A DNA stretch of 64,000 nucleotides, from NCBI GenBank assembly GCA_041659505.1, contig JBAZYF010000001.1:321719-385718 (forward strand), given 5' to 3'. The translations under genes were made by a program, and so were the position numbers. Below are positions 25,961-56,691 of this stretch, piece by piece; the first letter of the stretch is position 1; the number at the start of each line of letters is the position of its first letter. Under the pieces are notes generated by a model. It saw only the letters and a list, made by a program, of their open reading frames with translations, did no database searches and had not been told where the DNA came from. This DNA comes from Parcubacteria group bacterium. Its GTDB lineage: Bacteria > Patescibacteriota > Minisyncoccia > Moranbacterales > UBA2206.

Positions 25961-26709
25961 TTTGTCATACAGCTTTTGGCCTGTGCTTCAATTGCACAAC
26001 TTTTAGCTTGTGTTTCATTGGAAATAATTTTTCCATCTTCCATGTTGATGATCCTTGTTCCGAAACAATATTGACTTGGATTGTGCGTAACCATCACAAC
26101 CGTGAGACCAAATTGTTTGTTGATATCTTCAATCAGCTTCATTAATTCATCCCCCGCTTTATGATCAAGATTGCCCGTCGGTTCATCAGCAATAATCAAT
26201 TGCGGATCAAGCAAGAGCGAGCGAGCCAGGGCGATACGTTGTTGTTGCCCTCCGGAAAGATCATACGGCCGGTGATTAGCCCACTTGCTCATACCCACGA
26301 GCTCAATCAGTTTGGCCGCTTTTGGGATCGATTCGTGAAAAGAAGCGCCAGCGATAACGGCAGGGATAGTGATATTTTCAATGACTGAAAGCGATTTGAT
26401 CCAAAAAGCTTGCTGAGGAATGAAACCGATATTTTTATTGCGAAAATGGGCGCGCCAGTCTTTGGAATAGCTCCAAATATCTTTGCCATCAATAATAATT
26501 TTGCCTTCCGTCGGCGGTTCCAATCCATAGATCGAATGGAGCAAGGTAGACTTTCCGCAACCAGACGGACCGATGAGCAGACAAAACTCTCCCTTCATTA
26601 TCTCAAAATCCAAACCAAAAAGAATGGGGATAACATTTTCACCAACCCGAAATTCCTTTTTTATATTCTCCACTCTAATTTTTACTTCGCCCATAAATTT
26701 GACATCCAA
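25957..26709 (-). CDS. ABC transporter ATP-binding protein, MacB/LolD-like
   Basis: GPSGCGKST, LSGGQQQRIALARSL and IIADEPTGNLD. Confidence 0.85.
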   Translation of the reverse strand: MDVKFMGEVKIRVENIKKEFRVGENVIPILFGLDFEIMKGEFCLLIGPSGCGKSTLLHSIYGLEPPTEGKIIIDGKDIWSYSKDWRAHFRNKNIGFIPQQAFWIKSLSVIENITIPAVIAGASFHESIPKAAKLIELVGMSKWANHRPYDLSGGQQQRIALARSLLLDPQLIIADEPTGNLDHKAGDELMKLIEDINKQFGLTVVMVTHNPSQYCFGTRIINMEDGKIISNETQAKSCAIEAQAKSCMTK

Positions 26710-41203: not shown

Positions 41204-41776
41204 TTATTTTCTCCCGATATTCTTCAGCGCCATCCCCACTCTCTTCCCAATATCTTTCACATCCCCCGACACACTCTTCAGCGCTTCCCGCGCTTCATAA
41301 GCGCTATAGCCCATCGCCATCAGCGCCTCAATCGATTGCGAATCGCCAGTCGTTTCGTCTTGATCACCCTGCGAAATTGTTCCCACTTTATTTTTCAACT
41401 CCAAAATCACCCGGCCGGCGGTTTTTTTGCCCACGCCGGAAACTTTCGTGAGAATGGAAGTGTCTTCATTCACAATCGCCGCCTTGATCGTTTTCGGGCT
41501 GGCAATCGCCAGGATGCTCGAAGCGGCTTTAGGTCCGATACCGGAAATAGAAATCAAAAGCTCAAACATCTCCTGCTCTTCTTCAGTCAAAAATCCAAAC
41601 AGCGCCAGCACATCTTCACGCACATGAGTATAAATAAACAGCTCGACACTCTCCGTCCCGGCAATTTTCGCCAAAGAATAACTATTCATCTGGACCTTAT
41701 ACCCAATATCATGCACATCTAAAATGACATAGTTTTCCCTGATAGTATCAATTTTTCCCTTAATTTTTCCAATCAT
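41204..41776 (-). CDS. ruvA: Holliday junction branch-migration protein RuvA
   Basis: MIGKIKGKI...YVILDVHDIGYKV N-terminal OB domain and the HhH pair GIGPKAASSILA / VSGVGKKTAGRVILEL. Confidence 0.9.
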   Translation of the reverse strand: MIGKIKGKIDTIRENYVILDVHDIGYKVQMNSYSLAKIAGTESVELFIYTHVREDVLALFGFLTEEEQEMFELLISISGIGPKAASSILAIASPKTIKAAIVNEDTSILTKVSGVGKKTAGRVILELKNKVGTISQGDQDETTGDSQSIEALMAMGYSAYEAREALKSVSGDVKDIGKRVGMALKNIGRK

Positions 41777-42005
41777 AATTATTCCGTGTCATCCTCGCCC
41801 CCGTTTTCACGAGGATAAACTCCGGCGGGGATCCAGTCTCACAGCCCTTGATTTATACACAAAACTATCACACTTACAGAGATAGTGAAGAAAGTTTTAT
41901 ACTCTACATTATATACGACCCAGCCAAAAATTGCACGCCCAAAAGAAAAAGGGAAGCACAGTTATATGCACTTCCCTTTTCAAGTATCTATTATTTAAGT
42001 ATCTA

Positions 42006-42809
42006 TTATTTTTTGTGAGCTACAAAAATGATCTGCTCACTATTTTCATCGTATGGACTACCCCACCAATTGCCATAAGCCTCACAAGACACAAACCCGG
42101 CGTCAAGACACCAATCGACAAACTCATCTTTTTCAAAAACTCTGACCGAATAATCCTTTCTCACTAGTGTTCCGTCGGGCCTGATAATAATCCAGGCTCC
42201 GTCCATTCTTTTGGTTATGGCACTATACCGATCAATGATTTGTAGTTGATTTCCCGATATAAGTTTCCTAATCTCGTTTTCCTTGTACTTCCCTGCCCGC
42301 ACTCGCGACAGATTGACGTCGGTTTCCATTAAAAATTTTCCACCGGGCTTCAGTGCCCTAAAAAAATTTCGTAAAACTTCCCGATTGTCACTGTCAGTCT
42401 CGAAGAAACCAAAGGAGTAACACATATTGATTATGTGATCAAACTGGTTGAAATAAGCGATATCTAGCATACTTTCTTTCCTGAAATCAACTGCAATTCC
42501 CAGCTCCCTTAAACGATCAATCGCATTTTTAAGATGCGTCGCATTAATATCAATACCGACAATAGCATAGCCCCTCTTTGCCAATTCAATGCTGTGCCTG
42601 CCATAGCCACAAGGAATATCCAAGATTCTTTCGCCACCGGTCATGCCCAACAATCTGACAACACCATCAACATCTTCCTCTGTTCGTTCTACAATCGTTC
42701 TATTTTTATCTTCCAAATATCCTTCCTTGGAATTATCCCCCTCCATGTAAAATTCACCAAAAAAATCATACTTTTCATCCCACCAATCAGAATCGATTTC
42801 ATTTTTCAT
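42006..42809 (-). CDS. Class I SAM-dependent methyltransferase
   Basis: Motif I ILDIPCGYGRHSIELA. Confidence 0.65.
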   Translation of the reverse strand: MKNEIDSDWWDEKYDFFGEFYMEGDNSKEGYLEDKNRTIVERTEEDVDGVVRLLGMTGGERILDIPCGYGRHSIELAKRGYAIVGIDINATHLKNAIDRLRELGIAVDFRKESMLDIAYFNQFDHIINMCYSFGFFETDSDNREVLRNFFRALKPGGKFLMETDVNLSRVRAGKYKENEIRKLISGNQLQIIDRYSAITKRMDGAWIIIRPDGTLVRKDYSVRVFEKDEFVDWCLDAGFVSCEAYGNWWGSPYDENSEQIIFVAHKK

Positions 42810-42997
42810 AATACCCTCCTCCTTGATTTAATTGATAAATAACTCTGTTAAATATTCAACTAGCCTATCTAATTTTCAATTTAACTGCTTATTGTATCCC
42901 AAAAACCCAAATCTGTCACTACTTAGGTCAAGAGATATGTGAATATTGACAATATATGGCTTATTTGATATACTAATACTAACGACCCTTTCTTCGT

Positions 42998-43139
42998 CAC
43001 GCCATAGTCACAAGTACTCTTGGGACGAAGGCGGACTGAGTCACGCCATAGCTTAAGTAAAGGCGGACTGCGCCACGCCGTAGCCCAAGCGAAGGCGGAC
43101 TGCGCCACGCCGTAGCCCAAGCGAAGACGGGTATAGTCC
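42998..43139. repeat. Tandem array of 32-bp repeats (two identical and two or three degenerate units) upstream of a TrmB gene
   Basis: AGGCGGACTGCGCCACGCCGTAGCCCAAGCGA occurs twice, preceded by AGGCGGACTGAGTCACGCCATAGCTTAAGTAA. The motif GGCGGACTGCGYCA also occurs at 5231 and 12806. Confidence 0.7.
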
Positions 43140-43156
43140 AATAAACCACCAAATTC

Positions 43157-43891
43157 ATGCTCCAAGACAACCTCCAAAAAATCGGCCTAGACAAGAAAGA
43201 AAGCCAAGTCTATCTGGCGCTTTTGGAGTTGGGTAGCGCCAATATCGGGCAGATTGCCAAAAAATCCGCCGTTAAACGGACAACGGTCTATGATATTTTA
43301 GATTCCTTGAAAGAAAAAGGCCTATTAGGTCAGACTAAAAGCAAGAATCACACGCTCTTTTTCGCCGAAAACCCAGAAAAATTGGAACGACAGATCGAAG
43401 AAAAGAAAAAAATTATCCTAAAAGTGATGCCAGAACTTCTTTCCATCGCCAACCGATTGGAGAAAAAGCCTAAAATCAAGTTTTTTGAAGGAAAAGCTGG
43501 CATCAAAGAAGTTTATGAGGACACTCTGAAATATCCCGACCAAGAAATTTTAGCTTGGGCAACGGACGACGCGTTGAAATATTTCGACGCGCAGTATCTG
43601 TGGCATGAATATGTCCCCGCTCGGATAAAAAATCGCATTTGGGAGCGCACAATTGCGCCAAACAATGAACAAATGCGCCACGTCAAATCCTATGACCAAA
43701 AACACCTGCGCCAGATCCGCTTCGCGCCGGAAAACGAAACGCTCTTTGAAGTAGAAATTAATCTCTACGGCAAAAAACTGATCGGCATCATGGCCTTCGA
43801 AGAACAGATCGGCCTCATCATTGAAAGCGAAAAAATCTTCAACACTTTGAAAAGTATTTTTGAAATCAATTGGAAGGCGTTGGAGAAATAA
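43157..43891 (+). CDS. TrmB-family transcriptional regulator
   Basis: N-terminal wHTH LQKIGLDKKESQVYLALLELGSANIGQIAKKS plus the TrmB C-terminal domain. Confidence 0.7.
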   Translation: MLQDNLQKIGLDKKESQVYLALLELGSANIGQIAKKSAVKRTTVYDILDSLKEKGLLGQTKSKNHTLFFAENPEKLERQIEEKKKIILKVMPELLSIANRLEKKPKIKFFEGKAGIKEVYEDTLKYPDQEILAWATDDALKYFDAQYLWHEYVPARIKNRIWERTIAPNNEQMRHVKSYDQKHLRQIRFAPENETLFEVEINLYGKKLIGIMAFEEQIGLIIESEKIFNTLKSIFEINWKALEK

Positions 43892-43947
43892 CCCAAAACG
43901 TGCATTTTTTGTTATGCTTGGTATAATAAAACGTAATAAAAAAATTT

Positions 43948-44463
43948 ATGATAAAAAATGAAAAGCAACCTGCTATACCCAATGAAAGGATAATGAGCCA
44001 GATCTATTTCATCCGCGGGGAAAAAGTGATGTTTGACCGCGATTTAGCCGAGCTTTATGGCGTGGAAACTAGATTGCTTAAACAGGCAGTAAAAAGAAAC
44101 TTGGATCGATTTCCCGCAGACTTCATGTTTCAACTAAATAAAAAAGAACTTGAAATTTGGAGATCACAAATTGTGATGTCCAAAAGTGATAAGCAAGGAT
44201 TAAGATGGCTGCCAATTGTTTTCACCGAACAAGGCGTAGCGATGCTTTCGGCAGTTTTGAAAAGTAAGCGCGCCGTAGCAGTTAGCATCCAAATAGTACG
44301 GACATTCGTGAAGTTGCGAGAAATTCTTTCTACCCACAAGCAACTACGCGAAAAAGTTGAGCTGATGGAGGATAAGTATGACAAAAGTTTTAAGGTAGTT
44401 TTTCAAATGATTGCACAACTGATGAAGGAAGACGCGGAGCCGAAGAAACGTATTGGATTTTAA
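43948..44463 (+). CDS. ORF6N-domain (antirepressor-like) DNA-binding protein
   Basis: IRGEKVMFDRDLAELYGVETRLLKQAVKRNLDRFPADFMFQL...LPIVFTEQGVAMLSAVLKSKRAVAVSIQIVRTFVKLRE matches the ORF6N pattern. Confidence 0.65.
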   Translation: MIKNEKQPAIPNERIMSQIYFIRGEKVMFDRDLAELYGVETRLLKQAVKRNLDRFPADFMFQLNKKELEIWRSQIVMSKSDKQGLRWLPIVFTEQGVAMLSAVLKSKRAVAVSIQIVRTFVKLREILSTHKQLREKVELMEDKYDKSFKVVFQMIAQLMKEDAEPKKRIGF

Positions 44464-44480
44464 CTATTTTCAAAAATTTT

Positions 44481-47216
44481 ATGGAAACCCCCAAACCCGA
44501 AAAACTCATCCTTATCGACGGTAATGCTATCATCCATCGATCATACCACGCTCTCCCGCCGTTCACCACCAAAAATGGCGAGCTAGTGAATGCAGTTTAT
44601 GGATTTGCCTCAACTTTGCTTTCCATCATTGCCAAGTTCGAGCCGAAATATATCATAGCCACTTTTGATTTGGCCGGACCGACTTTTCGCCACATTGAAT
44701 ATGCGGAGTATAAGGCGACGCGCGCGAAAGCGGATGATGCGCTTTATGCGCAGATTCCTCGCGTCAAGGAAGTGACCGAGGCGTTTGGTATTCCGATTTA
44801 TGCTGTCGCCGGCTTTGAAGCGGATGATGTGATTGGAACACTCGCAAAACAAGCGAGGGAAAACTCTCGGGAGCTAGAGACTATTATCGTCACGGGCGAT
44901 ATGGACACATTGCAATTAGTCGATGATGTGACTTCGGTGTACACGATGCGCCGGGGACTGACTGACGCCGTGCTCTATGGCAAGGCGGAAATTTTTGAAC
45001 GCTTCTCACTGGCACCGGAACAGTTGATTGACTACAAAGGTCTGCGCGGAGATCCGTCAGATAATATTCCGGGCGTAAAAGGCATCGGCGAAAAAACCGC
45101 TATCGAACTTTTGAAGACTTACGGCACATTGGAAAATGTTTATGCCCATTTGGAAGACATCAAAAAACCACTGCGGGAGAAACTGGAGAAAGATAAAATG
45201 ATTGCGATTCAGAGCAAAGGACTGGCCACAATTTCCCGAGTTGTCCCGGTCACGCTAGATCTGGAAAAAGCGGTAACAAAAGATTTTGACAAAGAAAAAT
45301 TGGTCGCGCTTTTCACGGAACTTAATTTTCATAGTCTCAAAAAAAGACTATTGGGAAATACGACTGACAGCAAATCAAATAAAGCTGACCAGAAAAATGC
45401 TCCGACGGAAAAATCAGAAGGTATTAAAGATTTTAAATTTGAAATAGCTGACCAGAAAAATTTTCCAGAACTGCTCGCGAATCTAAAGGAGCAAAAAGAA
45501 CTGGCTATCAAGCTTAGAACTAATGGCGTCTCTGTGCACGCTAGCACGCTTTCTGGCATTGCCATTGGCTATAAGACTGGTCGCGCAATCTATTTCGATT
45601 TAGAGAATAAAGAAATTTTTTCGGAAATAAAAACACTCTTGGAAAATCCACAGACGGAAAAAATTTGTTTTGACTTGAAAAGTGATTGGGAGGTTTTGCA
45701 AAACGCCGGGGTAAATCTCGCCGGAAACTATTTCGATATTCTGCTTTCCAGCTATGTTCTTAGCCCGGGCCGGAAAATAACTTTGCCTGATCTCGTCGCG
45801 GAATTTTTACAAGAAGAAATGGCCGAAGAATCCAAAAAGGGCCAACTAGGCCTTGAGATTGAAAGTACCGAAGACATTGCCCAAAAAAATTGCGCCGTCG
45901 CCGACTATATTTTCAAACTGAAAAAAATCCAAAAAGAAGAAATCGAAAAAATCAGTGCGGAGCAAGTGAAATCTGGAAATTCTCCGGCGCACACGCTCAG
46001 TACGGTTTTTTGCGAACTGGAAATTCCCCTGGCTAAAGTTTTGGCACAAATGGAACTATCTGGCATCAAATTAGACACTATGATTTTTGCCGGCATTTCC
46101 GAAACGATCACGAAACGCATTGCGAAGCTCGAAGAAAATATCTATGCGCTTTCCGGCACAACTTTCAACATCGCCTCTCCCAAGCAACTCTCTGAGGTGC
46201 TGTTTGAAAAAATGCACTTGCCGGTCGGAAACATTAAAAAAGGTAAATTCGGCGTCATCTCAACGGCTTCGGCGGAACTGGAAAAATTGAAAGGTGAACA
46301 TAAGATCATTGAAAAAATCGAAGAATACCGCGAAATCACAAAACTGAAAAATACCTATCTCGACACCCTGCCAGAAATGGTCGACAAAAATTCCCGCCTC
46401 CATTCTACTTTCAACCAAGCCGTCACCGCCACCGGTCGCCTCTCATCCTCTGATCCCAATTTGCAAAACATTCCCACCCGCACCGATCTGGGACAACTTT
46501 TGCGCACGGCGTTTGTCGCTGAAACTGGTCACAAACTCGTCAGCGCCGATTATTCTCAAATTGATCTGCGCGTAGTCGCTCATGTTAGTAGTGACAAAAA
46601 AATGATCGAGCTGTTTCATAAAGACGAAGACATCCACCGTGCCACTGCGGCGGAAATCAACAACCTCACGCTCTCGCAAGTGACGGACAAAATCCGCCGC
46701 ACCGCCAAAGAGCTAAACTTTGGTGTGATTTATGGCATGGGCTCCTTCGGTTTTTCCGCCCGCGCCGGCATTTCACGCGATGATGCGAAAAGATTTATCG
46801 ATGCCTATTTTGAAAAATTCCAAGGGGTGGCGAAATATATGCAAGGGATTCGCGAATCCGCCAAAACCAACGGCTACGTCGAAACAGAAATCGGCCGCCG
46901 GAGATATATTCCAGAAATCAACTCATCCAATTTTCAGTTACAAAGCGCCGCCGAACGGATGGCGATCAATATGCCCATCCAAGGCCTCGCCTCAGACATC
47001 ATGAAAATCGCTATGCTCCACGTCACTAAAGAATTTGAAAATAATCCCGATGTCAAAATGCTTCTCCAAGTCCACGATGAAATTATTCTCGAAGTCAAAG
47101 AAGATCTGGCCGAAGAAGTAGCGCAAAAAATCAAAACGATTCTTGAAAAAGCCTACACTCTCAAAGTTCCACTCGTGGCGAACGTTGAGATTGGGGATAA
47201 TTGGGGAGAATTGTAG
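44481..47216 (+). CDS. polA: DNA polymerase I
   Basis: 5'-nuclease N-terminus (LILIDGNAIIHRSYHAL), polymerase motif A (DYSQIDLRV), motif B (RRTAKELNFGVIYG) and motif C (VHDEIILE). Confidence 0.9.
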   Translation: METPKPEKLILIDGNAIIHRSYHALPPFTTKNGELVNAVYGFASTLLSIIAKFEPKYIIATFDLAGPTFRHIEYAEYKATRAKADDALYAQIPRVKEVTEAFGIPIYAVAGFEADDVIGTLAKQARENSRELETIIVTGDMDTLQLVDDVTSVYTMRRGLTDAVLYGKAEIFERFSLAPEQLIDYKGLRGDPSDNIPGVKGIGEKTAIELLKTYGTLENVYAHLEDIKKPLREKLEKDKMIAIQSKGLATISRVVPVTLDLEKAVTKDFDKEKLVALFTELNFHSLKKRLLGNTTDSKSNKADQKNAPTEKSEGIKDFKFEIADQKNFPELLANLKEQKELAIKLRTNGVSVHASTLSGIAIGYKTGRAIYFDLENKEIFSEIKTLLENPQTEKICFDLKSDWEVLQNAGVNLAGNYFDILLSSYVLSPGRKITLPDLVAEFLQEEMAEESKKGQLGLEIESTEDIAQKNCAVADYIFKLKKIQKEEIEKISAEQVKSGNSPAHTLSTVFCELEIPLAKVLAQMELSGIKLDTMIFAGISETITKRIAKLEENIYALSGTTFNIASPKQLSEVLFEKMHLPVGNIKKGKFGVISTASAELEKLKGEHKIIEKIEEYREITKLKNTYLDTLPEMVDKNSRLHSTFNQAVTATGRLSSSDPNLQNIPTRTDLGQLLRTAFVAETGHKLVSADYSQIDLRVVAHVSSDKKMIELFHKDEDIHRATAAEINNLTLSQVTDKIRRTAKELNFGVIYGMGSFGFSARAGISRDDAKRFIDAYFEKFQGVAKYMQGIRESAKTNGYVETEIGRRRYIPEINSSNFQLQSAAERMAINMPIQGLASDIMKIAMLHVTKEFENNPDVKMLLQVHDEIILEVKEDLAEEVAQKIKTILEKAYTLKVPLVANVEIGDNWGEL

Positions 47217-47345
47217 AAATATAGTAGGTTAGCTTTTTTCACAACTCAAGAAAATAGCCAGGAAAATATTGCCCGAAGAAAAAATAATTGATATCATTCC
47301 AGCATCAATTGAAGAATTTCATAAATTGATCAACGGGATTAAAAA

Positions 47346-49019
47346 ATGAAAAAAACTTTATCCATAATTATACTCATGTTGTTGCTACCAATAGGAGTTA
47401 TGGCAACATTTCAGATACCATCGGATCGCTCCATCACATGGACAGGAAATGCTGGAGTAAATGGAGGCATTCCGATTAGAACTACTATTTGCCAAACTAT
47501 TACAGCATCTAGTGGAGACAGGACAGCTGAAATCCAGACCGCCATAAACAACTGCCCATCAGGTCAGGTAGTATTGCTAGGTGCTGGGACATTTAACATA
47601 TCTGGGTTACAAATGAAAACCGACGTCACTTTGCGTGGTTCTGGCATGGGATCAACAATAATCGTGCCAAGTGGTTCTGAGTTTATTCATTTTGGAGCTT
47701 ATGGGGTAGATTATGGTACAGCCGTTGGGCTATCAAGTGGATTAACTAAAGGTTCAACCTCAATCACAACCTCTGGGAATCACGGATGGAATGTGGGTGA
47801 TTGTATTGTTATCGATCAATTAAACAATGCGGCAGGAGACCCGCCAGTCACTAATGTCGGAGAAGGTGGCAGTATGACCATGAGCGGCCGAACAGGAGAT
47901 GGGACAAGGGCAATCCAACAAGTAGTCAAATTGGTAGCACCTACATCTGGAACCACGGCAACGCTTGAAATCCCGCTATACTGGACTATGGATGGTACAA
48001 AAACACCGCAGGCAGCAAAAGTAACAATGCAAGTTACAAACGCTGGGATTGAGGATTTAACTTTTAACTCATCCTACTTCTATAACGTTACCATTTTCAA
48101 TGCCGATAATTGCTGGCTGAAGGGAGTGGAGTTGAATGGATTTTCCGAATCTGGAATGGGAATTTATTTGACAAATGCTTATAGAATCCAGATTGAAAAA
48201 TGCAATTTTCATCAGGTGGTTGCCGGGACAGCTAATGACAACTACGCAATTACCTCAGCAATGACGGGTAGCGCGCATCTGATTCAAAATAACACAATCC
48301 ATAACGTATCCTGTGGGGTAGTGATTCAGGGTGGATTTTCTGGCGGAGTCATTGCTTACAATTATCTGACAAACATATGGCAAGAGGTATATCCAACCGC
48401 AAATAGATATGCAATCGGACTTCATGGTGGGCATCAATTTCAAAACTTATTTGAGGGAAATGTAATCGAAGGTGCTCTTTTTAGTTCTGATAATTACTGG
48501 GGGTCAAATAGCAATAATACATTATTCCGAAACAGAATCCATATGGATTATACGAAAGTGGATCAACTGGTCACTCTTGGGGTGTCAAACAACCAAACAT
48601 ACTACAATGTGATTGGAAATTATCTTGGCACTGCCGGACAGGACGACGCATATGAAACCACAACTATCCCGTATGCACCATCATCTAAATATATTTATTT
48701 TACCCCTTCTGGGGCATGTAAAACAACAATGCTCCGACATGGAAACTGGGACGCAGTAACGGCAGGACAAAAATGGTGTGATAGTAGCGGAGAGCCTGGA
48801 TGTCAAGGTGCAACTGTAGATCATTCATTGCCTGATTCACTTTATTATGACTCAAAACCAGCATTTTTCGGGTCCATCGCATGGCCACCAATTAATCCAG
48901 AAACCCCTTTTGTCGCTGATATTCCTGCGAAAGTATATTATGATACTGGTTCATGGCCAGATACAGGAGGCGATGACACCACGCCACCAAATGTGCCTAG
49001 CGGGCTGAGCGTGGAATAA
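47346..49019 (+). CDS. Secreted right-handed beta-helix (pectate-lyase-fold) protein
   Basis: Signal peptide MKKTLSIIILMLLLPIGVMA followed by repeated NxxIxN/GG beta-helix rungs (NNTIHNVSCGVVIQGG). It ends abruptly at TTPPNVPSGLSVE, which may be a C-terminal truncation. Confidence 0.55.
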   Translation: MKKTLSIIILMLLLPIGVMATFQIPSDRSITWTGNAGVNGGIPIRTTICQTITASSGDRTAEIQTAINNCPSGQVVLLGAGTFNISGLQMKTDVTLRGSGMGSTIIVPSGSEFIHFGAYGVDYGTAVGLSSGLTKGSTSITTSGNHGWNVGDCIVIDQLNNAAGDPPVTNVGEGGSMTMSGRTGDGTRAIQQVVKLVAPTSGTTATLEIPLYWTMDGTKTPQAAKVTMQVTNAGIEDLTFNSSYFYNVTIFNADNCWLKGVELNGFSESGMGIYLTNAYRIQIEKCNFHQVVAGTANDNYAITSAMTGSAHLIQNNTIHNVSCGVVIQGGFSGGVIAYNYLTNIWQEVYPTANRYAIGLHGGHQFQNLFEGNVIEGALFSSDNYWGSNSNNTLFRNRIHMDYTKVDQLVTLGVSNNQTYYNVIGNYLGTAGQDDAYETTTIPYAPSSKYIYFTPSGACKTTMLRHGNWDAVTAGQKWCDSSGEPGCQGATVDHSLPDSLYYDSKPAFFGSIAWPPINPETPFVADIPAKVYYDTGSWPDTGGDDTTPPNVPSGLSVE

Positions 49020-49321
49020 AGAGCTAAGAAAATTTGAAAATAATCCGGAAGTGGAAATCGGAAATAATTGAGGGGAATTGTAAAACTAGCTAACAACTAT
49101 TTTATTATGCTTCATTGTTATCAATATTGTTAATAATCATGAATCATTAAACACGAATTGCTTATCCCCTCTCCTTAACAAGGAGATTTTACCTTCAACG
49201 ACTTGGAGGGAAAAGGGTGAGGCGAATTTAACTTTACTAATTAAAAACATAGAAAAAAGGAGTTGCAATGATTGGCAACTCCTTTTGATTATACCTGCAG
49301 AAAAAATCTTTTCCCCCTTTC

Positions 49322-50068
49322 TTATTTCGCGATAAAAATTTTGTAGATAGGATCATCTAAAAACTTCCGCCAGAAATTTTCCCCGTATTTCCGAATCCCC
49401 TCATTAGATACAAAGCACGGAAGCCATTCAACAGAAAACCCGATTTTTTCCAGGACTTCCTGGTAAGTTTTTTCACTCCAATAGATATCATCGAAGTCAA
49501 GAAATTTACTACCACCAAAATCAGATAGAGAAACATTGGACGGCTCGCCTTCTCGGCCAGTTGGTGATGAAATTCTTACGCCATAACCATCGTAGTCAGA
49601 GAAAGGAACGACGACCGCCAAAAATTCACCACCGGACTTGAGTACTTTCTTGACGTTGGAAAACAATTTTTCCAGCATTGCTCGTTCCGTACAGTAATGT
49701 ACCGATAAAATTGCCGTGACCAAATCGAATTTTCCCAAATCGCTCAAGTCATCAATAGCATTTCTGATTAAATATTTGATGGGTTCGTAAGAATCAATTT
49801 CCCGTGCTGTAATAATTTCTTTTTCAGAAATATCAATGCCTACAACTCTCCGCGCTCCGCATGAAAGTGCTAGACGACTGGAATTGCCCATGCCACAACC
49901 AACATCCAATACTCTCTTTCCAGAAAGATCGCCTAAATGCTTAACCAACGATGGCTGGAGAGTTAACTCTCGTAGTTCTCGTCTCGAAGCCTTGGCATAT
50001 TCATTTGCATTGGCATCATACATCACGGCAGTATCTGCAAACATCTTGTCCTGATTAATTTTTGACAT
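49322..50068 (-). CDS. Class I SAM-dependent methyltransferase
   Basis: Motif I VLDVGCGMGNSS. Confidence 0.65.
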   Translation of the reverse strand: MSKINQDKMFADTAVMYDANANEYAKASRRELRELTLQPSLVKHLGDLSGKRVLDVGCGMGNSSRLALSCGARRVVGIDISEKEIITAREIDSYEPIKYLIRNAIDDLSDLGKFDLVTAILSVHYCTERAMLEKLFSNVKKVLKSGGEFLAVVVPFSDYDGYGVRISSPTGREGEPSNVSLSDFGGSKFLDFDDIYWSEKTYQEVLEKIGFSVEWLPCFVSNEGIRKYGENFWRKFLDDPIYKIFIAK

Positions 50069-50269
50069 ATTATTTATTCCTTTTTTTAATGTGCAAATTT
50101 AATTTTCCCTCCATCTCAAGCCTCAAAACAATTTTGAAACTTGGGAAAAGGAGGCGAGCATAGTGCGATGATACGCGTGCTCGCCTTTCCTACAATAAAG
50201 AACGATTTAGGAGAATTAAGAGATATCTTCCTCAAGGATTATCTCTTGTTTTACCGGCTTAGATCTGTT

Positions 50270-50778
50270 TTATTGATGTGGAACTTCCAAATGCCAGTTG
50301 CCATTTTTAAAGCCATCATATTTTTGGTTAAACTTATCACCAAAAATCAGGGGCTTAATACTTTCCCAGAATTTCAAAAGTCTGGTCAAGCCCGATGAAT
50401 CATATTCAGCATAGCGATTTATTTGTATCATCATAAATAAATTTTCACGCTCTACACCATAATAAACCCAGAGTCTAACGCACCCGTCTTTCGTAGTGGT
50501 CGACATGCAATGGAAAGAACCATGGTACTTGTCAAAGTCATCTGAAGAAATCCATCCAAGCTTGCAAAAAACATTCTTTGCTTCTTCCTTCCTGTCATTG
50601 TCTTTCCATAGATTAATCAAGTTGTTACAGAATTCAATGCACTCCTCATCGGAATTCAACATTTGAAATGCTTTGCTGATAGGAATGCGACTTCTATTAA
50701 TAGTATCGTGAAAATAGAAAATAGCCACTTTCTCCCGATCATGAAAAGCTTTTTCGCCGATTATGATAGTATTCAATA
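50270..50778 (-). CDS. Hypothetical protein (169 aa)
   Basis: An ATG at 50778 (MSDILNTIIIGEK...) is preceded by AGGAGA, so I chose it over the track's 243-aa call. Confidence 0.4.
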
Positions 50779-51124
50779 TATCGCTCATTACTATTCTCCT
50801 TGTTTTAAAGGTACATTTTTTTGTCTCCCCGAGAATCCATTTCTCAGCTTGACTCCGGAGTATAGCACGTCTATTGTTTATTGTCAACAGTAATCTTGCG
50901 ACAATATTGACATAAGTTTTAAACTGATGTATAATTAAGCCAGGATAAGGGATTTTTGGAATTTGGTCAGTTTGAGATTGACAGAAATCGATAGTGGACA
51001 TTTTGCGGACAGTCTCTACGAATTACGAATTTGTACGAATATACGAATGTAAAAATAACCCCCATGTGACTAGTTTTAGTTATATTTTAGTCAAACTTTA
51101 ATATAACTTGACTATAGTTTTAGT

Positions 51125-52375
51125 TTGATATATACTATAGTCATAATTGTTAACTTATTCATTTTTATGCTCTACAAAAGAAAAATTAACGATGAAATCC
51201 TAAAATTCCTTGATTTAGAGGAAATAATTGTTTTGCATGGCGCCCGGCAAGTTGGTAAGACGCATATTTTACTGTGGCTGGAAGATTATCTGAAAAGCAA
51301 AGGAGAGGATGTATATTACATAGATTTGGAAGATTCGCGGTATAAAAAGCTACTAGACCTAGGAACCGCTGAATTTATCACCCACCTGAAGGAGGAGGGA
51401 CATTTCCCGAAAGAGAGCAAAAAAACTTTTGTATTTATTGATGAAATTCAGTATCTGGACAATCCTTCTGAGTTTTTGAAACTGATTGCCGATCATCACA
51501 AAAATATCAAGTTGATCGTGTCGGGATCTTCCAGCTTTGAGATAAAAAGCAAATTCAAAGATTCGCTTGTCGGACGAACGATTAATTTTGAAATTTTTAA
51601 CCTATCTTTTGAGGAATACTTAATGTTCAAAAAATACACCTATACTCCAAGTAAAAAAACAACAGCGCTAAAGCAAGCCGAATTAAGAGCTCTCTACAGA
51701 GAATTCGTTTTGTTTGGCGGCTATCCAAAAGTGGCACTGATTGACAATATTGAATTAAAAGAAAAGCGCTTGCAGCAAATCATTGATACCTACATCAGAA
51801 AAGATATCAAAGAATTAGCCAACATCGATAATATTGAAAGTTTCAACAAATTATTGGAGGTTTTGGCATCGCAAAGCGGTCAATTGGTTAATAGCAAAGA
51901 ATTAGCCAACACTTGCAAGCTATCCGCAATAACGATTGAAAAATATTTATTCATTCTCGAACAAACCTACATAATAAAATTAGTCAGGCCCTATAATAAA
52001 AACATTCGCAGCGAACTTTCTAAGATGCCAAAAGTATTCTTTTATGATTCTGGATTGATGCAGATGCTTTGGCTCAAAAGTTTGCAAAAAGAGCTTATTG
52101 GCAATGTTTTTGAAACTAGTATTTTCAGTGAACTCGTGAAAAAATATGGGAGAGATAAGGTTTATTATTGGCGGACAAAAGATAAAAAAGAAATTGATTT
52201 TATCGCTATTCCCAAAAATGAAATTGTTCCCATCGAAGTTAAAATTAATTTTAACAAAGCTAATCTATCGGCCATAAACTATTTTTTAGAAAATTATAAA
52301 CTGAGCAAATATCAAATAATTGGTCTTGATGGATATGAACAAAGAAAGGGCTGGGTTTATCCCTGGGAGATTTAA
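51125..52375 (+). CDS. AAA+ ATPase of the DUF4143 / AAA_14 type (COG1373-like)
   Basis: Walker A HGARQVGKTH, Walker B FVFIDEIQ and a C-terminal DUF4143-like block. The true start is probably internal. Confidence 0.6.
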   Translation: MIYTIVIIVNLFIFMLYKRKINDEILKFLDLEEIIVLHGARQVGKTHILLWLEDYLKSKGEDVYYIDLEDSRYKKLLDLGTAEFITHLKEEGHFPKESKKTFVFIDEIQYLDNPSEFLKLIADHHKNIKLIVSGSSSFEIKSKFKDSLVGRTINFEIFNLSFEEYLMFKKYTYTPSKKTTALKQAELRALYREFVLFGGYPKVALIDNIELKEKRLQQIIDTYIRKDIKELANIDNIESFNKLLEVLASQSGQLVNSKELANTCKLSAITIEKYLFILEQTYIIKLVRPYNKNIRSELSKMPKVFFYDSGLMQMLWLKSLQKELIGNVFETSIFSELVKKYGRDKVYYWRTKDKKEIDFIAIPKNEIVPIEVKINFNKANLSAINYFLENYKLSKYQIIGLDGYEQRKGWVYPWEI

Positions 52376-52393
52376 AATAAATTACACCTTTTT

Positions 52394-53140
52394 ATGGAAA
52401 ACGAACTAAAACAACTTGGGCTCACACCCAATGAAATCAAGATCTATAACGCGCTGTTGGAATTGGGCGAAAATACGGTGGGGCCACTGATCAAAAAGCT
52501 GGGGATGCATCGCCAGGTGGCTTATGACGCGCTGGAAGGATTAGAAAGTAAAAAGATGATTTTGAAAACTACCAAAAATAACCGCTTGGTTTTTCGGGTG
52601 GCTAATCCGCAAAATATTCTCGACAACATCAAGCAACAAGAAATCATCGCTTCTAGTTTGGTCGAAGAAATCAATTCCAAACTAACCGGTCAACAAAAAG
52701 GTCAAGAGATTCGAGTTTATGAAGGCGCCAAGGCTTATCGAGAGTTAATTAAAAGAAAAGATGATTTGATGCCGGAGAATTCGCAATACCTAGTTGTCAC
52801 TGGCGCGGCGATGAAATTCAAAGAAATAATGCTCAAATCCGGTGTGTTTGAAAGAAGTAACCGCATCCGCATGAAAAAAAATATCAAGACAAAATTGATT
52901 TTTGGCAACATCAGCTCCGCGGAAGCCCAGCTTGTCAAACGCGCCAACTCGGAATATCGCTTTTTGCCGGAAGGCTATTCTTCGCCAACATCATTTGACA
53001 TTTGGCACGACTCCATCACTCTCAATTCCTATGGCTCGGGAAACGGCGATGATATGTTTTGCATCGAAATCAAAAACGAAGACTTCCGCCAGTCTTATCT
53101 GACCTATTTCGATCTGCTTTGGAAGATGGCGAAAAAATAA
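52394..53140 (+). CDS. TrmB-family transcriptional regulator
   Basis: N-terminal LKQLGLTPNEIKIYNALLELGENTVGPLIKK wHTH. Confidence 0.7.
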   Translation: MENELKQLGLTPNEIKIYNALLELGENTVGPLIKKLGMHRQVAYDALEGLESKKMILKTTKNNRLVFRVANPQNILDNIKQQEIIASSLVEEINSKLTGQQKGQEIRVYEGAKAYRELIKRKDDLMPENSQYLVVTGAAMKFKEIMLKSGVFERSNRIRMKKNIKTKLIFGNISSAEAQLVKRANSEYRFLPEGYSSPTSFDIWHDSITLNSYGSGNGDDMFCIEIKNEDFRQSYLTYFDLLWKMAKK

Positions 53141-53148
53141 TTGAAATG

Positions 53149-53991
53149 CTATTTATTCAAAAGCCTCTTATTCTCCGGATTTTTTATAAAATTCTTTTTA
53201 GAAACCAGCGATCTGCCCAACTTAGTTTCCAATTCTTTTCTGGCATTGCCAGCAATTCTTCCGCCAATCTTTGCATCATCTTTCAGCTTTTTCACGCCTT
53301 TGGAATTTTCATTTTTATGAATTTCCGTTGTCGACCGCTCGCCAAGCATCGTAAAAATCAGCTCGAAATCATCCATATGATCACGCAAGTTTTCGCGCTT
53401 CAAGCCTTTTAGTTTTTTGTATTCAACCGGCGTCACGCCAAAAGTCGCTTTAGAAATTTCCGCTGTCAAAATTTCATAATCTCGATTTTCTCTTGCGCCT
53501 CGCTTTTGCCACTCATCCGTCAGTTCTTCGCGAATTACAATCCCGCGCATGCGCTTTTCGATCCAATCCTCGGAATAGCCCTTGAGCTTATAGAGTGCTC
53601 TGGTTCTTTTGGCTGCCAATTCCGGATCTTCGATTTCCTGCACTCGCTCATAACCAACTTTCGCCAGCCAGCGCTTCAGAGGCTCGGCTTTGGGCGAAGG
53701 AATTGATTGAATAATGCGAAACATCCCTTCGGTGTTAGCGCAATCGGTTTCACGCATTTTTCCATCAGGAGCCAGCAATTTCAACTGTCTACAAATTGTA
53801 GATAGTTGAAACTCGGCCTCATCTTTAACTCTTGCCTTCATCGCAGTCCAATAAACACTTGGGCGATCGCTATCTGTAAGCGCATAAATTACATCCACAA
53901 CCGAAAACCACCATTCATTTTGATAGATGATTTTTCGAATTTCCTTGCCCTTGAAAACGGCAACTTTCGTGGAGAAAATATTTTTGTTCAT
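53149..53991 (-). CDS. BRO-N-domain protein, DinD (DNA-damage-inducible protein D)-like
   Basis: N-terminal FKGKEIRKIIYQNEWWFSVVDVIYAL resembles Bro-N/DinD. The overall architecture resembles DinD-type proteins. Confidence 0.5.
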   Translation of the reverse strand: MNKNIFSTKVAVFKGKEIRKIIYQNEWWFSVVDVIYALTDSDRPSVYWTAMKARVKDEAEFQLSTICRQLKLLAPDGKMRETDCANTEGMFRIIQSIPSPKAEPLKRWLAKVGYERVQEIEDPELAAKRTRALYKLKGYSEDWIEKRMRGIVIREELTDEWQKRGARENRDYEILTAEISKATFGVTPVEYKKLKGLKRENLRDHMDDFELIFTMLGERSTTEIHKNENSKGVKKLKDDAKIGGRIAGNARKELETKLGRSLVSKKNFIKNPENKRLLNK

Positions 53992-54077
53992 ATTTTTTTG
54001 TTTTAAAAAAATTATAGTGTTATTGTACCATTATAAATATCTTTTTGCAACTACTCCTTTTTTAGGCATAGAAAAAA

Positions 54078-54103
54078 GGGAATTGCTATGATAAGCAATT
54101 CCC
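54078..54103 (-). terminator. Terminator after the REC-fusion gene
   Basis: GGGAATTGC-TATGATAA-GCAATTCCC followed on the minus strand by TTTTTTCT. Related hairpins with an AATGAT loop are at 49258-49284 and 56222-56250. Confidence 0.55.
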
Positions 54104-54164
54104 CTTAAACCCTAAAACAAAGAACTAATGCGAGAGCAGCTCTGTTGCGCTGCTCTCCGAACCA

Positions 54165-55028
54165 TCATTCAAACATCGCTGAAAGCGGGAGCACTCCTAC
54201 GCCCCTTGCTTCCCATCTTTTTTCATACCGCCGAAGTTGTTCTTTATCGTCCTTCCCCTCTCCATTAGAGAGATATAAAACTGCCAAATAATAATCACTC
54301 GGACGGTTTTTGTTATATTTTTTTAGCCATATAGATATGGCATTATTTTCCCCTTCGAGACCTTTTCGACTTCCCTTTATGCGAATCCTTCGATCTGCAA
54401 CAAAAAGAAAGTCTCCTTCTTTCCTGACACTACCCCGAAGAGGAACATGCCAAGCCACCTCAAGAAAACTGGGAGGATCAATATCAACAGGATACAGGGA
54501 GACACAGAGTACTTCATGCTCTCCTTCTGAAACATCAACACGAAAATCTGGAGACTCACATGATTCAAATGCGCGTTCGAGCGCATCTACCCTTTCCGCT
54601 CTGCGCACCTGAGTTTGGTGATTCCTCTCGTCGATTAAACTTATCTCTGCGAGAGTGTCCTTTCGCACTCTCTCCCTCTCCAATTCCGAAACAGCAAGTG
54701 CGGCAACCAATACTTCCGCGGCTTCTTTTTTTAGCGCACTTTTCAGCGCACCTCTCCTTGCCAACTCGATATTGCAATCCGAATCGGACGAAGCGGCAAC
54801 GAAGAGGATGTTACGACTTTTCAAATAATCAGCGATTTCAATTGTGTTGCCACCGATTATGCAAAAGTCCAGAATCGCTCCAGCAATTTTTTCAGTCGTT
54901 AGTGTTTGAGATCTCCAATCAGCGACACTCTCAAGCTCAACGACTTCAAAACCATTGGAGTTCAGAACCTTTTGCCATCCATCCCGGATTGATTTTATAT
55001 CTTCTACTATCACTATTGTATTTTTCAT
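54165..55028 (-). CDS. Receiver-like (REC) domain fused to an uncharacterised C-terminal domain
   Basis: IVIVEDIKSIR...AILDFCI...ILFVAASSD is receiver-like. The C-terminal ~170 aa are unknown. Local GC content is visibly higher than in neighbouring genes. Confidence 0.45.
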   Translation of the reverse strand: MKNTIVIVEDIKSIRDGWQKVLNSNGFEVVELESVADWRSQTLTTEKIAGAILDFCIIGGNTIEIADYLKSRNILFVAASSDSDCNIELARRGALKSALKKEAAEVLVAALAVSELERERVRKDTLAEISLIDERNHQTQVRRAERVDALERAFESCESPDFRVDVSEGEHEVLCVSLYPVDIDPPSFLEVAWHVPLRGSVRKEGDFLFVADRRIRIKGSRKGLEGENNAISIWLKKYNKNRPSDYYLAVLYLSNGEGKDDKEQLRRYEKRWEARGVGVLPLSAMFE

Positions 55029-55080
55029 TTCTCTCTCCCTGCTCCATTTCTACCCCGCCGATGCAGACGGCAATTCATTG

Positions 55081-55305
55081 CTACCATCGTTTTATTCCAG
55101 CTACTGCAAGAATTGTCCCAAAAACACTCAATACAACTATTCCAGTAGCAGATAACATCCCCATACTTTGACATGATCTTCCGCCTTCAAATCCAAATTC
55201 CCAAATTAAGGCAAGAACCATGAGTGCCAATCCAACCAAAATCATCAAGAAACCTTTCTTTTTCATTTTCTTCTCCTTTTCACTCCTTCGTTTATTGCTA
55301 TACAT
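55081..55305 (-). CDS. Small two-TM membrane protein
   Basis: Lys-rich N-terminus and two hydrophobic helices. Sits directly upstream of the REC-fusion gene. Confidence 0.35.
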   Translation of the reverse strand: MYSNKRRSEKEKKMKKKGFLMILVGLALMVLALIWEFGFEGGRSCQSMGMLSATGIVVLSVFGTILAVAGIKRW

Positions 55306-55406
55306 ATTCGATTTTAAAATAACTCTCTAATTCAGCTTAACGAGAAAGTATAGCACCAAAATACTATTTTGTCAATATATTTTGATGATAATATAATGAT
55401 ATTGAC

Positions 55407-56195
55407 TTGGCTATAATAAAGGTGTATAACATAAGCATGTCAAATAATCTTGATAAAAATTTATTATCAAATCTCCAAGCGCTAGGCCTGTCTGAAAAAG
55501 AAGCGGTTGTTTATGTCGATCTTTTGAAAAAAGCCCGGCCAGTCGGCAGTTCCAAGATAGTGACTAGCACCGGACTTCACGGGCAATATGTCTATAATTC
55601 GCTCTATGCACTAGAAGAAAAGGGGCTGGTCAAGCACAGTATCGTGAATGGTCGCAAGAAATTTGAATCCAATCCACCGGCACGTATCAACAACTTAATT
55701 GAAGAAAAACGGCTAGTGGCAAAAAAGACACTAGAACAACTAAGTGACATCGCTGTCCGCCCAATAGGGCAAGAATTCGAAGTGTATCAAGGCGAAACCG
55801 CCTACATCCAAAGGCAGTTCGATACCTTGGAAATTATGCCTGAAGGCGAAGAAATGGTAATTATTTCCACCGATTGGGGCGAGTTGTTCACTGAGAAGCG
55901 GACGGATTTTCTTGATGCCTATGAAAAACGGCGCAATGAAAAAAAAATTTCTATTCGTTTCATTCTAAATGAAGGGCTACGCAAAGTCGCCAAGCGATCA
56001 GACGAGACGCGCCTCCGGACTCAGTACCGCTTCCTACCGGATCATCACAGCTATGGCGGAATTTGCGTCTTCAATGATGCGGTAGATTTCTTCCTGAAAG
56101 GTGACCCAATTACTGTTTTTTCTTTCAAAAACCAAAAAACTACCGCCGGTTATCGCAATTTTTTTGAAGTATTGTGGGGAATGGGGAAAGAATAG
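55407..56195 (+). CDS. TrmB-family transcriptional regulator
   Basis: LQALGLSEKEAVVYVDLLKKARPVGSSKI wHTH; the third paralogue in the window. Confidence 0.65.
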   Translation: MAIIKVYNISMSNNLDKNLLSNLQALGLSEKEAVVYVDLLKKARPVGSSKIVTSTGLHGQYVYNSLYALEEKGLVKHSIVNGRKKFESNPPARINNLIEEKRLVAKKTLEQLSDIAVRPIGQEFEVYQGETAYIQRQFDTLEIMPEGEEMVIISTDWGELFTEKRTDFLDAYEKRRNEKKISIRFILNEGLRKVAKRSDETRLRTQYRFLPDHHSYGGICVFNDAVDFFLKGDPITVFSFKNQKTTAGYRNFFEVLWGMGKE

Positions 56196-56264
56196 ACAAA
56201 GAATTTATACATAGAAAAAAGGGCACGGCCACAATAGGCAGTTCCCTTTTTTTATTTTTTTTGA

Positions 56265-56570
56265 TCATATGCTTTTTTTCCTTAGTTTTTCGACCAATGC
56301 ATCTGATACAACATTAGCCAAGATTGTCATTGCGTGCTCAATGGCGGTGCGCGTCAAGGTGAAATTTAATAGAGTCAAGAGCGATTCTATCGCCAAGGCA
56401 AGCGTTTCATCCTTGACCCCCATAGTATCAATTGAGAAAAAAGCAACAAATTCTCTTTTTTGATTTTCAAAGAACAATTTTGCATCTTCCTCATTTTTGA
56501 TACCCGCAATTTGCACCGTGAGCAGACGATCTGCCCTATTTTTCAAAACAACAAAATTATGTTTTCTCAT
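56265..56570 (-). CDS. Hypothetical protein (101 aa)
   Basis: ORF with a plausible terminator downstream; no motif recognised. Confidence 0.3.
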   Translation of the reverse strand: MRKHNFVVLKNRADRLLTVQIAGIKNEEDAKLFFENQKREFVAFFSIDTMGVKDETLALAIESLLTLLNFTLTRTAIEHAMTILANVVSDALVEKLRKKSI

Positions 56571-56691
56571 GATTGCTCCTCCTTTTTTTTGGTTGTTGTT
56601 TTTAAAATTAGATTTGGCTACAAAAATCAGCCTGATGCAAAAAAATCTTTTTTATGCTAGTCTAGAAAAGCTAAATTTTGATTGATAAAGT

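What the first reader, a model, noticed from the sequence alone, without database searches (positions are those of the whole stretch)
47030..49085. Degenerate copy of the polA 3' end downstream of the beta-helix gene, suggesting a cassette inserted at the polA terminus
49031-49084 (AAATTTGAAAATAATCCGGAAGTGGAAATCGGAAATAATTGAGGGGAATTGTAA) reads KFENNPEVEIGNN*GEL*. It mirrors two pieces of the polA C-terminus, KEFENNPDV (47030-47056) and EIGDNWGEL-stop (47189-47216), with the intervening ~50 codons deleted. The 1.8-kb segment between the real polA stop and this remnant carries only the secreted beta-helix protein, which itself ends abruptly. A displaced duplicate of a gene's 3' end on the far side of foreign DNA is the usual scar of site-specific integration into that 3' end.
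Basis: seen in the sequence. Interest (0 to 1): 0.5.

Follow-up and report, generated by a model that had tools for sequence, protein, structure and literature searches.

The report
Displaced polA tail marks gene insertion
A decayed 54-base copy of the end of the DNA polymerase I gene sits just past a foreign enzyme gene in this Candidatus Moranbacteria genome, marking where about 2 kb of DNA was inserted; this is an ordinary recombination scar, not a new kind of mobile element.

Summary
Window 49030-49083 is a decayed copy of the polA 3' end. Its first piece matches polA 24/28, including 16 exact bases. Its second piece matches 32/43. A 132-nt (44-codon) internal deletion separates them, and there is an in-frame TGA. 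No shuffle or other window segment reaches this score.

The decisive evidence is comparative. In relative L004/L021 the ~100 nt after the true polA stop are homologous to the DNA after the relic's stop, in the same register (+4/+4). Seven relative haplotypes have polA followed directly by the methyltransferase gene, which is the empty site. None of 21 haplotypes has the beta-helix gene or a relic.

So about 2 kb was inserted: a replacement polA tail plus an intact secreted beta-helix, depolymerase-like gene. The resident tail was pushed downstream.

Site-specific integration is not supported. No recombinase was found, the insert carries a single gene, and the same insert appears nowhere else. 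The insert's two edges match the edges of a different cassette (AbiE) in relatives L020/L022. The two polA tails differ mostly at synonymous sites, as two alleles would. I favour homology-anchored recombination between two strain haplotypes with one illegitimate joint. The beta-helix gene is not truncated. Interest is low to moderate.

The parts
44481..47216 (+). Intact polA (DNA polymerase I, 911 aa).
   Evidence: Pfam finds the 5'-3' exonuclease, 3'-5' exonuclease and DNA_pol_A domains along the full length. The C-terminus EIGDNWGEL* is the same as in relatives.
47032..47216 (+). The functional polA 3' segment that has a second, decayed copy downstream. The pieces retained in the relic correspond to 47032-47059 and 47179-47216.
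47217..47242 (+). 26 nt after the polA stop. They resemble the post-stop sequence of relatives: L004 (about 75% with gaps, by eye) and L020/L022, which share the 11-mer GCTTTTTTCAC (47232-47242) at nearly the same distance from the stop. This is the left frame of the insert.
   Evidence: The position-specific chance estimate of about 0.01 is my own rough figure.
47243..47345 (+). Novel spacer upstream of the beta-helix gene. It has no match in any relative, contains promoter-like hexamers (TTGCCC-17-TATCAT with TG at 47269-47297), and has no terminator between polA and the gene.
47346..49019 (+). Cargo gene: a secreted right-handed beta-helix protein (557 aa) that resembles polysaccharide depolymerases and GH28 enzymes. 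It is intact.
   Evidence: Homologs carry PF12708/PF13229. The closest are only 59-64% identical and none is in a Moranbacteria relative. The C-terminus aligns with the family. The AF2 core has pLDDT 80-97 and the best Foldseek hits are phage tailspike or capsule depolymerases. Its codon usage is the most deviant of 20 window genes.
49021..49033 (+). GAGCTAAGAAAAT. It is identical to the last codons of AbiEii plus 6 nt in L022 (12/13 in L020/L060), where it lies 10 nt before the conserved terminator. This is the right frame of the insert. It overlaps the polA relic by 3 nt (AAT), which is the putative illegitimate joint.
49030..49083 (+). Relic of the resident polA 3' end. It reads KFENNPEVEIGNN*GEL*, has a 132-nt internal deletion with its junction in 49046-49058, an in-frame TGA at 49069-49071, and a stop at 49081-49083.
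49084..49254 (+). Ancestral spacer downstream of polA. It is homologous to the DNA right after the polA stop in L004/L021 (73% over 104 nt, E = 4e-12, starting at +4 in both) and partly to L048. It contains the terminator-like hairpin 49170-49186.
49255..49286 (.). Conserved hairpin terminator AAAAGGAGTTGC...GCAACTCCTTTT, found after the methyltransferase gene in most relatives that carry that gene.
   Evidence: (I11).
49322..50068 (-). Convergent class I SAM-dependent methyltransferase gene. It is the right-hand neighbour of polA in genomes with the empty site.

Best explanation
Window 49030-49083 is the original 3' end of polA from a Candidatus Moranbacteria chromosome. In that chromosome polA was followed directly by a ~230-nt spacer and a convergent methyltransferase gene.

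About 2 kb of DNA was joined in front of this original tail: a replacement polA tail (~185 nt), 26 nt of post-stop sequence, a promoter-bearing spacer, and an intact secreted beta-helix gene. polA stayed intact and the resident tail became a non-coding duplicate. The relic then lost 132 nt between short imperfect repeats and acquired a nonsense codon. (This much is shown; probability about 0.9.)

The most likely mechanism (inferred; probability about 0.5) is homology-anchored recombination with DNA from a related strain that already carried the gene after polA. One crossover was homologous, inside polA. The other joint was illegitimate, at 3-8 nt of microhomology (...GAGCTAAGAAAAT|TTGAAAATAATCC...). 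Two routes give this result:
- homology-facilitated illegitimate recombination of a linear fragment;
- a single crossover by a circularised fragment.
Both routes are expected to leave a partial duplication of the anchor gene. No dedicated integrase is needed.
For: 1. The relic is significant and collinear with the polA tail.
2. The relic's stop codon aligns with the true polA stop of L004/L021. The next ~100 nt are homologous from +4 in both. The relic is therefore in the ancestral position.
3. The empty site occurs in 7 relative haplotypes. The insert and the relic are absent from all 21 haplotypes examined.
4. The beta-helix gene has no close homolog in relatives (best match 64%). Its codon usage is deviant.
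5. The insert's edges match the edges of the AbiE cassette in L020/L022: an 11-mer 12-16 nt after the polA stop, and a 13-mer at the right end.
6. Of the 10 differences between the two tails, 9 are at third codon positions and 7 are synonymous. Seven relic states are alleles seen in relatives. Most divergence therefore arose while both copies were coding, in two lineages. My rough binomial test gives p about 0.006 against local duplication followed by decay.
7. No recombinase was found.
8. Partial duplications of 109-950 bp of the anchor gene are the usual experimental product of such events (PMC3240628). [quoted passage not shown]
Against: - No donor haplotype (polA, beta-helix gene, then terminator, with no relic) was found.
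- The flank matches are short (11 and 13 nt). Their significance depends on position and rests on my own rough estimates.
- The 13-mer can also be aligned to polA with three gaps.
- Sliding identity along polA shows no breakpoint, because all relatives are 75-90% identical and mosaic.
- Synonymous-biased divergence would also be expected for an element-borne replacement tail.
- An integrase acting in trans from outside the 64-kb window cannot be excluded.
- The direction of the event (which block was incoming) is not resolved.
Confidence: 0.6

Rival explanations
1. This is site-specific integration. A small integrative element carried an attP that mimics the polA 3' end and recombined at the 16-nt core AATTTGAAAATAATCC. 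That regenerated polA and displaced the resident tail as attR. The integrase and the rest of the element were later lost, or the cassette was mobilised in trans.
For: - An exact 16-nt direct repeat flanks the insert.
- polA is restored in frame.
- Divergence between the tails is mostly synonymous, as expected for a functional mimic.
- The site downstream of polA is a hot spot carrying different cassettes in relatives.
Against: - No tyrosine or serine recombinase or transposase was found in the insert, the island, or 38 larger ORFs.
- The insert is 2 kb with one gene, and it ends 1-11 nt after that gene's stop.
- The other cassettes at this locus have no polA repeat.
- The unit was not found elsewhere or in viral contigs.
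- The 16-mer is nearly invariant among polA alleles, so its identity needs no att explanation.
- The post-stop 26 nt and the right-end 13-mer look like chromosomal haplotype sequence.
Confidence: 0.15
2. This is a local event in one genome. Either a ~215-bp target duplication arose from staggered breaks or replication template switching during insertion of foreign DNA, or a tandem duplication arose and the gene then inserted between the copies. The downstream copy then decayed neutrally.
For: - The layout is duplication, insert, duplication.
- A possible CTAA shared by the relic's left edge and this strain's own polA allele (my reading).
- Gene relics are common in this island.
Against: - Nine of 10 differences are at third codon positions and 7 are synonymous. 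A neutral relic should carry about four times more changes than the constrained copy (rough p about 0.006).
- The post-stop parts of the two copies are only about 50% alike. They resemble different relatives' haplotypes, L020/L022 versus L004.
Confidence: 0.15
3. The resemblance is chance or low-complexity similarity in AT-rich intergenic DNA. There is no relic.
For: - The pieces are short (28 and 43 nt) and A/T-rich.
- A lenient gapped score was matched by other window chunks in a first, poorly designed test.
Against: - Proper ungapped and chained scores exceed all 3000 shuffles and all 1666 window chunks.
- The relic also hits the polA ends of relatives (L020, E = 3e-5; L048, 22/23).
- Its stop codon and downstream flank are in register with the true polA stop of L004.
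Confidence: 0.01

Closest known systems
C-terminal or 3'-end displacement at Rhs, CDI and T6SS effector-immunity loci, attributed to homology-facilitated illegitimate recombination (PMC5361080, which cites Jackson et al. 2009)
   Same: Incoming DNA shares a conserved upstream anchor with the resident gene and brings a new 3' part plus new downstream genes. The resident 3' end is shifted downstream and remains as an orphan relic. No integrase is involved.
   Different: The anchor here is a housekeeping gene (polA), and the two tails encode the same C-terminus rather than a new toxin domain. Only one displacement is seen, not an array. The host is a Candidatus Moranbacteria (CPR) bacterium.
Insertion-duplication by single crossover of a circularised fragment, and homology-facilitated illegitimate recombination as measured experimentally (PMC3240628)
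   Same: Both give a partial duplication of the end of the anchor gene flanking the inserted DNA (109-950 bp in E. coli lacZ; about 185-215 bp here). One joint is non-homologous.
   Different: This is a natural, old event. The duplicate has since lost 132 nt and gained point changes. The donor and the route of DNA entry are unknown.
Integrase-mediated islands and prophages that insert into the 3' end of tRNA, tmRNA or protein genes and carry a replacement 3' end (general knowledge, not read here)
   Same: The target gene is regenerated by incoming sequence. The displaced original 3' fragment lies at the far end of the insert. A short identical core is present at both ends.
   Different: There is no integrase. 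The insert is 2 kb with a single cargo gene. The same unit does not recur elsewhere. The flanks look like chromosomal haplotype sequence.

Membership tests
Integrase-mediated integrative element targeting a gene 3' end | A tyrosine or serine recombinase gene inside or next to the insert | tested here: not met
   Pfam on the insert ORF, all island genes and 38 larger window ORFs gave no integrase, recombinase or transposase. The rest of the genome was not available.
Integrase-mediated integrative element targeting a gene 3' end | A direct repeat (att core) at both ends of the insert | tested here: inconclusive
   The 16-nt exact repeat is at 47032-47047 and 49031-49046. However, this stretch is nearly invariant among polA alleles, so homology alone explains it.
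Integrase-mediated integrative element targeting a gene 3' end | The target gene is restored by incoming sequence | tested here: met
   polA is full length with a family-typical C-terminus.
Integrase-mediated integrative element targeting a gene 3' end | The same element recurs in other genomes, at the same site, or as a phage or plasmid | tested here: not met
   The exact protein occurs only in same-strain contigs L001 and L002. The closest homologs (59-64%) are in other contexts. There were no viral-contig hits, and it is absent from 21 relative haplotypes.
Homology-facilitated illegitimate recombination or single-crossover insertion-duplication | One junction lies inside sequence homologous to a resident gene (the anchor) | tested here: met
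   The left side of the insert is continuous, in-frame polA.
Homology-facilitated illegitimate recombination or single-crossover insertion-duplication | The other junction joins non-homologous positions at a few bases of microhomology | tested here: inconclusive
   49021-49033 equals the right end of the L022 cassette (13/13) and overlaps the polA relic by AAT. The match is short and the donor was not found.
Homology-facilitated illegitimate recombination or single-crossover insertion-duplication | Partial duplication of the anchor flanking the insert | tested here: met
   Compare the 109-950 bp duplications reported in PMC3240628.
Homology-facilitated illegitimate recombination or single-crossover insertion-duplication | The two copies derive from different lineages (donor and recipient alleles) | tested here: inconclusive
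   Nine of 10 differences are at third codon positions, 7 are synonymous, and 7 relic states are seen in relatives. The post-stop flanks resemble different haplotypes. The sample is small.
Homology-facilitated illegitimate recombination or single-crossover insertion-duplication | The host has a route for DNA uptake and RecA-dependent recombination | not tested
   Only ruvA was seen in the window. com and recA genes were not looked for because the whole genome is not available here.
Right-handed parallel beta-helix glycosidase, lyase or depolymerase (PF12708/PF13229 superfamily) - the cargo | Beta-helix fold | tested here: met
   The AF2 model core (residues ~45-400) consists of repeated short strands with block pLDDT up to 97, but overall pLDDT is 62 and residues 404-524 are poor. 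The top Foldseek PDB hits are LKA1 gp49 tailspike (E = 7e-11), Klebsiella K1 capsule lyase and GH28. Homologs carry PF12708/PF13229.
Right-handed parallel beta-helix glycosidase, lyase or depolymerase (PF12708/PF13229 superfamily) - the cargo | Direct profile match and catalytic residues | tested here: not met
   The protein itself has no Pfam hit at E <= 1e-3. It has only weak N-terminal matches to polygalacturonase. Catalytic residues were not examined.

The most novel reading that the evidence does not exclude
The end of polA may be a dedicated landing site in Candidatus Moranbacteria. Small cassettes without an integrase (beta-helix enzyme, AbiE, MntA/HepT-like, Fic) would be inserted there between fixed frame sequences (...GCTTTTTTCAC | cassette | GAGCTAAGAAAAT...) by a recombinase encoded elsewhere in the genome. 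That would be an integron-like system in a CPR lineage, and the polA relic would be a by-product of one imprecise event.
Probability: 0.06. Interest if true: 0.6.

Novelty: new member of a known kind. Interest (0 to 1): 0.27.

Why it matters
This is a clean example, resolved at the level of the junction sequences, of how a reduced-genome CPR bacterium gained a secreted polysaccharide-depolymerase-like enzyme. The gene was inserted next to an essential gene without harming it. The region downstream of polA also turns out to be a hypervariable slot in this lineage, holding toxin-antitoxin modules, Fic and a methyltransferase in different relatives. This is useful for annotation: the relic should not be called a gene, and the beta-helix gene should be flagged as acquired. 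It is also a small data point on recombination-driven gene gain in CPR bacteria. It does not reveal a new mechanism.

Tried and rejected
- My first significance test used zero gap-extension cost. It was too lenient and was replaced by ungapped and chained scores.
- I suspected the beta-helix ORF was truncated at the start of an Fn3 domain (...DTTPPNVPSGLSVE*). This was rejected because many family members end at the same aligned position.
- I looked for an imported tract or breakpoint in polA by sliding identity against 9-17 relatives. No signal emerged, because all relatives are mosaic at 75-90% identity.
- I tested whether a TTAGCTAA palindrome marks cassette boundaries. It is not enriched (8 observed against 6.1 expected).
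- A search for a phage origin of the cargo gene found no viral-contig relatives.
- The contexts of the closest cargo homologs (L054-L056) are not next to polA.
- Rfam and tRNA scans of the region found nothing, so there is no RNA-gene target.
- A PDB sequence search gave only weak hits.
- I asked whether the IS200-like transposase seen in L059 could explain the cassettes. It cannot: the shared sequences lie outside the variable parts and are too short to be element ends.
Full report
**Observation**

The window comes from a Candidatus Moranbacteria (Parcubacteria/CPR) genome. The polA product is 100% identical over its full length to P0001, named by its source as a Parcubacteria group bacterium protein, and 83-91% identical to a series of Moranbacteria proteins.

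polA (44481-47216) is intact and has all its domains. Downstream lie a 129-nt spacer, a 557-aa ORF (47346-49019), the short sequence in question, a ~240-nt spacer, and a convergent methyltransferase gene (49322-50068).

Window 49030-49083 translates to KFENNPEVEIGNN*GEL*.

- The repeat finder pairs 49031-49058 with polA 47032-47059 (24/28, with an exact 16-mer).
- It also pairs 49046-49088 with 47179-47221 (32/43).
- The two offsets differ by 132 nt, so 44 codons are missing. The junction lies in 13 nt that align to both polA sites, which is the signature of a deletion between short imperfect repeats.

My first test was too permissive. With ungapped scoring the best segment scores 20, against 9.5 +/- 1.3 (maximum 15) in 3000 dinucleotide shuffles. 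The two-segment chain scores 28, against a maximum of 25. None of 1666 other window chunks reaches 28. The same self-search in 21 relatives' loci gives nothing comparable.

**The relic is the resident polA tail, still in its ancestral place**

I fetched the loci of polA relatives from genomes and metagenomes.

In L004/L021 the polA stop is followed by a 230-nt spacer and then the methyltransferase gene. That spacer is homologous to the DNA that follows the relic's stop in the window:

- 73% over 104 nt (E = 4e-12), starting 4 nt after the stop in both;
- 84% over the conserved terminator and the end of the methyltransferase gene.

The relic also matches the polA ends of other relatives, sometimes better than its own genome's copy (L020, 31/38, E = 3e-5; L048, 22/23).

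polA is followed directly by the methyltransferase gene in L004/L021, L005, L027, L044, L058 and L061, with gaps of 78-230 nt. None of the 21 haplotypes has the beta-helix gene or a polA relic. Two contigs from other sequencing runs (L001, L002) are 100% identical to the window, so the arrangement is stable in this strain.

**The cargo gene**

The 557-aa protein starts with a signal-peptide-like N-terminus (read by eye). It belongs to a large family whose members carry PF12708/PF13229, although it has no direct Pfam hit itself.

- The predicted core is a beta-helix (block pLDDT up to 97; C-terminal third poor).
- Its best structural matches are phage tailspike and capsule depolymerases and GH28 enzymes.
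- Its closest homologs are only 59-64% identical and sit in unrelated contexts. No viral relative was found.
- Its codon usage is the most deviant of 20 window genes, and its GC3 is 0.35 against 0.49 for polA.
- It is not truncated: many family members of 560-590 aa end at the same aligned position.

**The locus is a hot spot**

In the deeper relatives L025 and L063, polA is followed directly by mutM. In the window, mutM lies 9.5 kb away at 56692-57633. The DNA between them varies among relatives:

- methyltransferase, Bro-N, TrmB paralogs and a DUF4143 ATPase;
- AbiEi/AbiEii in L020/L022;
- a nucleotidyltransferase pair (MntA/HepT-like, judged from the sequence) in L007;
- Fic in L045/L062.

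L057 carries fragments of a Bro-N gene right after polA, so gene relics are normal here.

**Mechanism**

No integrase, recombinase or transposase was found in the insert, the island, or 38 larger ORFs of the window. There is no tRNA or known RNA target.

The edges of the insert are informative.

- The 26 nt after the current polA stop end in GCTTTTTTCAC. This 11-mer lies 12 nt after the polA stop in L020/L022, just before their AbiE cassette. Beyond it the sequences diverge.
- At the right end, 49021-49033 (GAGCTAAGAAAAT) is identical to the last codons of AbiEii plus 6 nt in L022 (12/13 in L020). There it lies 10 nt before the conserved terminator.
- This 13-mer overlaps the polA relic by AAT.

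The window therefore reads as an occupied, L022-like frame joined out of register to an empty, L004-like block (polA tail, spacer, terminator, methyltransferase gene). That is one illegitimate joint with microhomology. These flank matches are short. My position-specific chance estimates (about 0.01 and about 0.001) are rough.

The two polA tails differ at 10 of 53 comparable positions. Nine of these are third codon positions, 7 are synonymous, and 7 of the relic's states are alleles present in relatives.

- A relic that decayed after a local duplication should carry most of the changes, at random codon positions. A rough binomial test gives p about 0.006 against that.
- The tails therefore most likely come from two lineages.

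Sliding identity along polA shows no breakpoint, because every relative is a 75-90% mosaic. I cannot say which block was the incoming one.

The favoured reading is homology-anchored recombination with DNA from a related strain. This could be homology-facilitated illegitimate recombination, or a single crossover by a circularised fragment. Experiments show that such events commonly leave 109-950-bp duplications of the anchor gene's end (PMC3240628). Shifting a gene's old 3' end downstream by this route has been proposed for T6SS and Rhs loci (PMC5361080).

The later 132-nt deletion removed most of the direct repeat. By inference, this would stabilise the insertion against loss by recombination between the copies.

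No terminator-like site lies between polA and the new gene. The old polA terminator-like hairpin (49170-49186) now follows the new gene.

**Verdict**

The inference of an insertion with an empty site in relatives is supported. The site-specific-integration mechanism and the abrupt end of the beta-helix gene are not supported. This is a new example of a known kind of scar. It is of modest interest, mainly as a documented gene gain in a CPR genome.

Noticed in passing
window 41204-57633; loci L025, L063, L057, L061, L062: The stretch between ruvA/polA and mutM is a hypervariable island in Candidatus Moranbacteria. polA and mutM are adjacent in L025 and L063. Elsewhere the gap holds TrmB paralogs, ORF6N and Bro-N genes, a DUF4143 ATPase, methyltransferases, toxin-antitoxin pairs and Fic.
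   Followed up: partly
L057 8794-9011: Fragments of a Bro-N gene lie directly after polA in the relative with the most similar upstream gene order (87% over 103 nt and 27/28 to window 53151-53253 and 53777-53804). This is another gene relic at the same locus.
   Followed up: no
L059 10110-10520: An IS200-like Y1 transposase gene (PF01797) lies about 450 nt beyond the AbiEi/AbiEii cassette that follows polA in that relative.
   Followed up: no
window 49255-49286 and relatives: A 12-bp-stem hairpin, AAAAGGAGTTGC...GCAACTCCTTTT, is conserved after the methyltransferase gene in most relatives that carry that gene. It is probably a bidirectional terminator.
   Followed up: partly
window 49100-49151; L004 5415-5470; L048 318-378; L007 11163-11222: An A/T-rich imperfect palindrome (TTATCAATATTGTTAATAATCA...) in the old polA downstream spacer recurs in relatives. 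One copy follows a TrmB-family gene in L007. It is single-copy in the window and could be a regulator binding site.
   Followed up: partly
window 26682-34709 (-): A 2675-aa ORF, by far the largest in the window. It was not examined.
   Followed up: no
window 43157-43891, 52394-53140, 55407-56195: Three TrmB-family regulator paralogs lie within 13 kb around polA. Further divergent copies occur in every relative's island.
   Followed up: no
P0124-P0126: The closest beta-helix homologs carry a C-terminal extension with a GGCFIATAAYGSYL motif and a hydrophobic tail, which looks like a sorting or anchor signal. The window protein lacks it.
   Followed up: no
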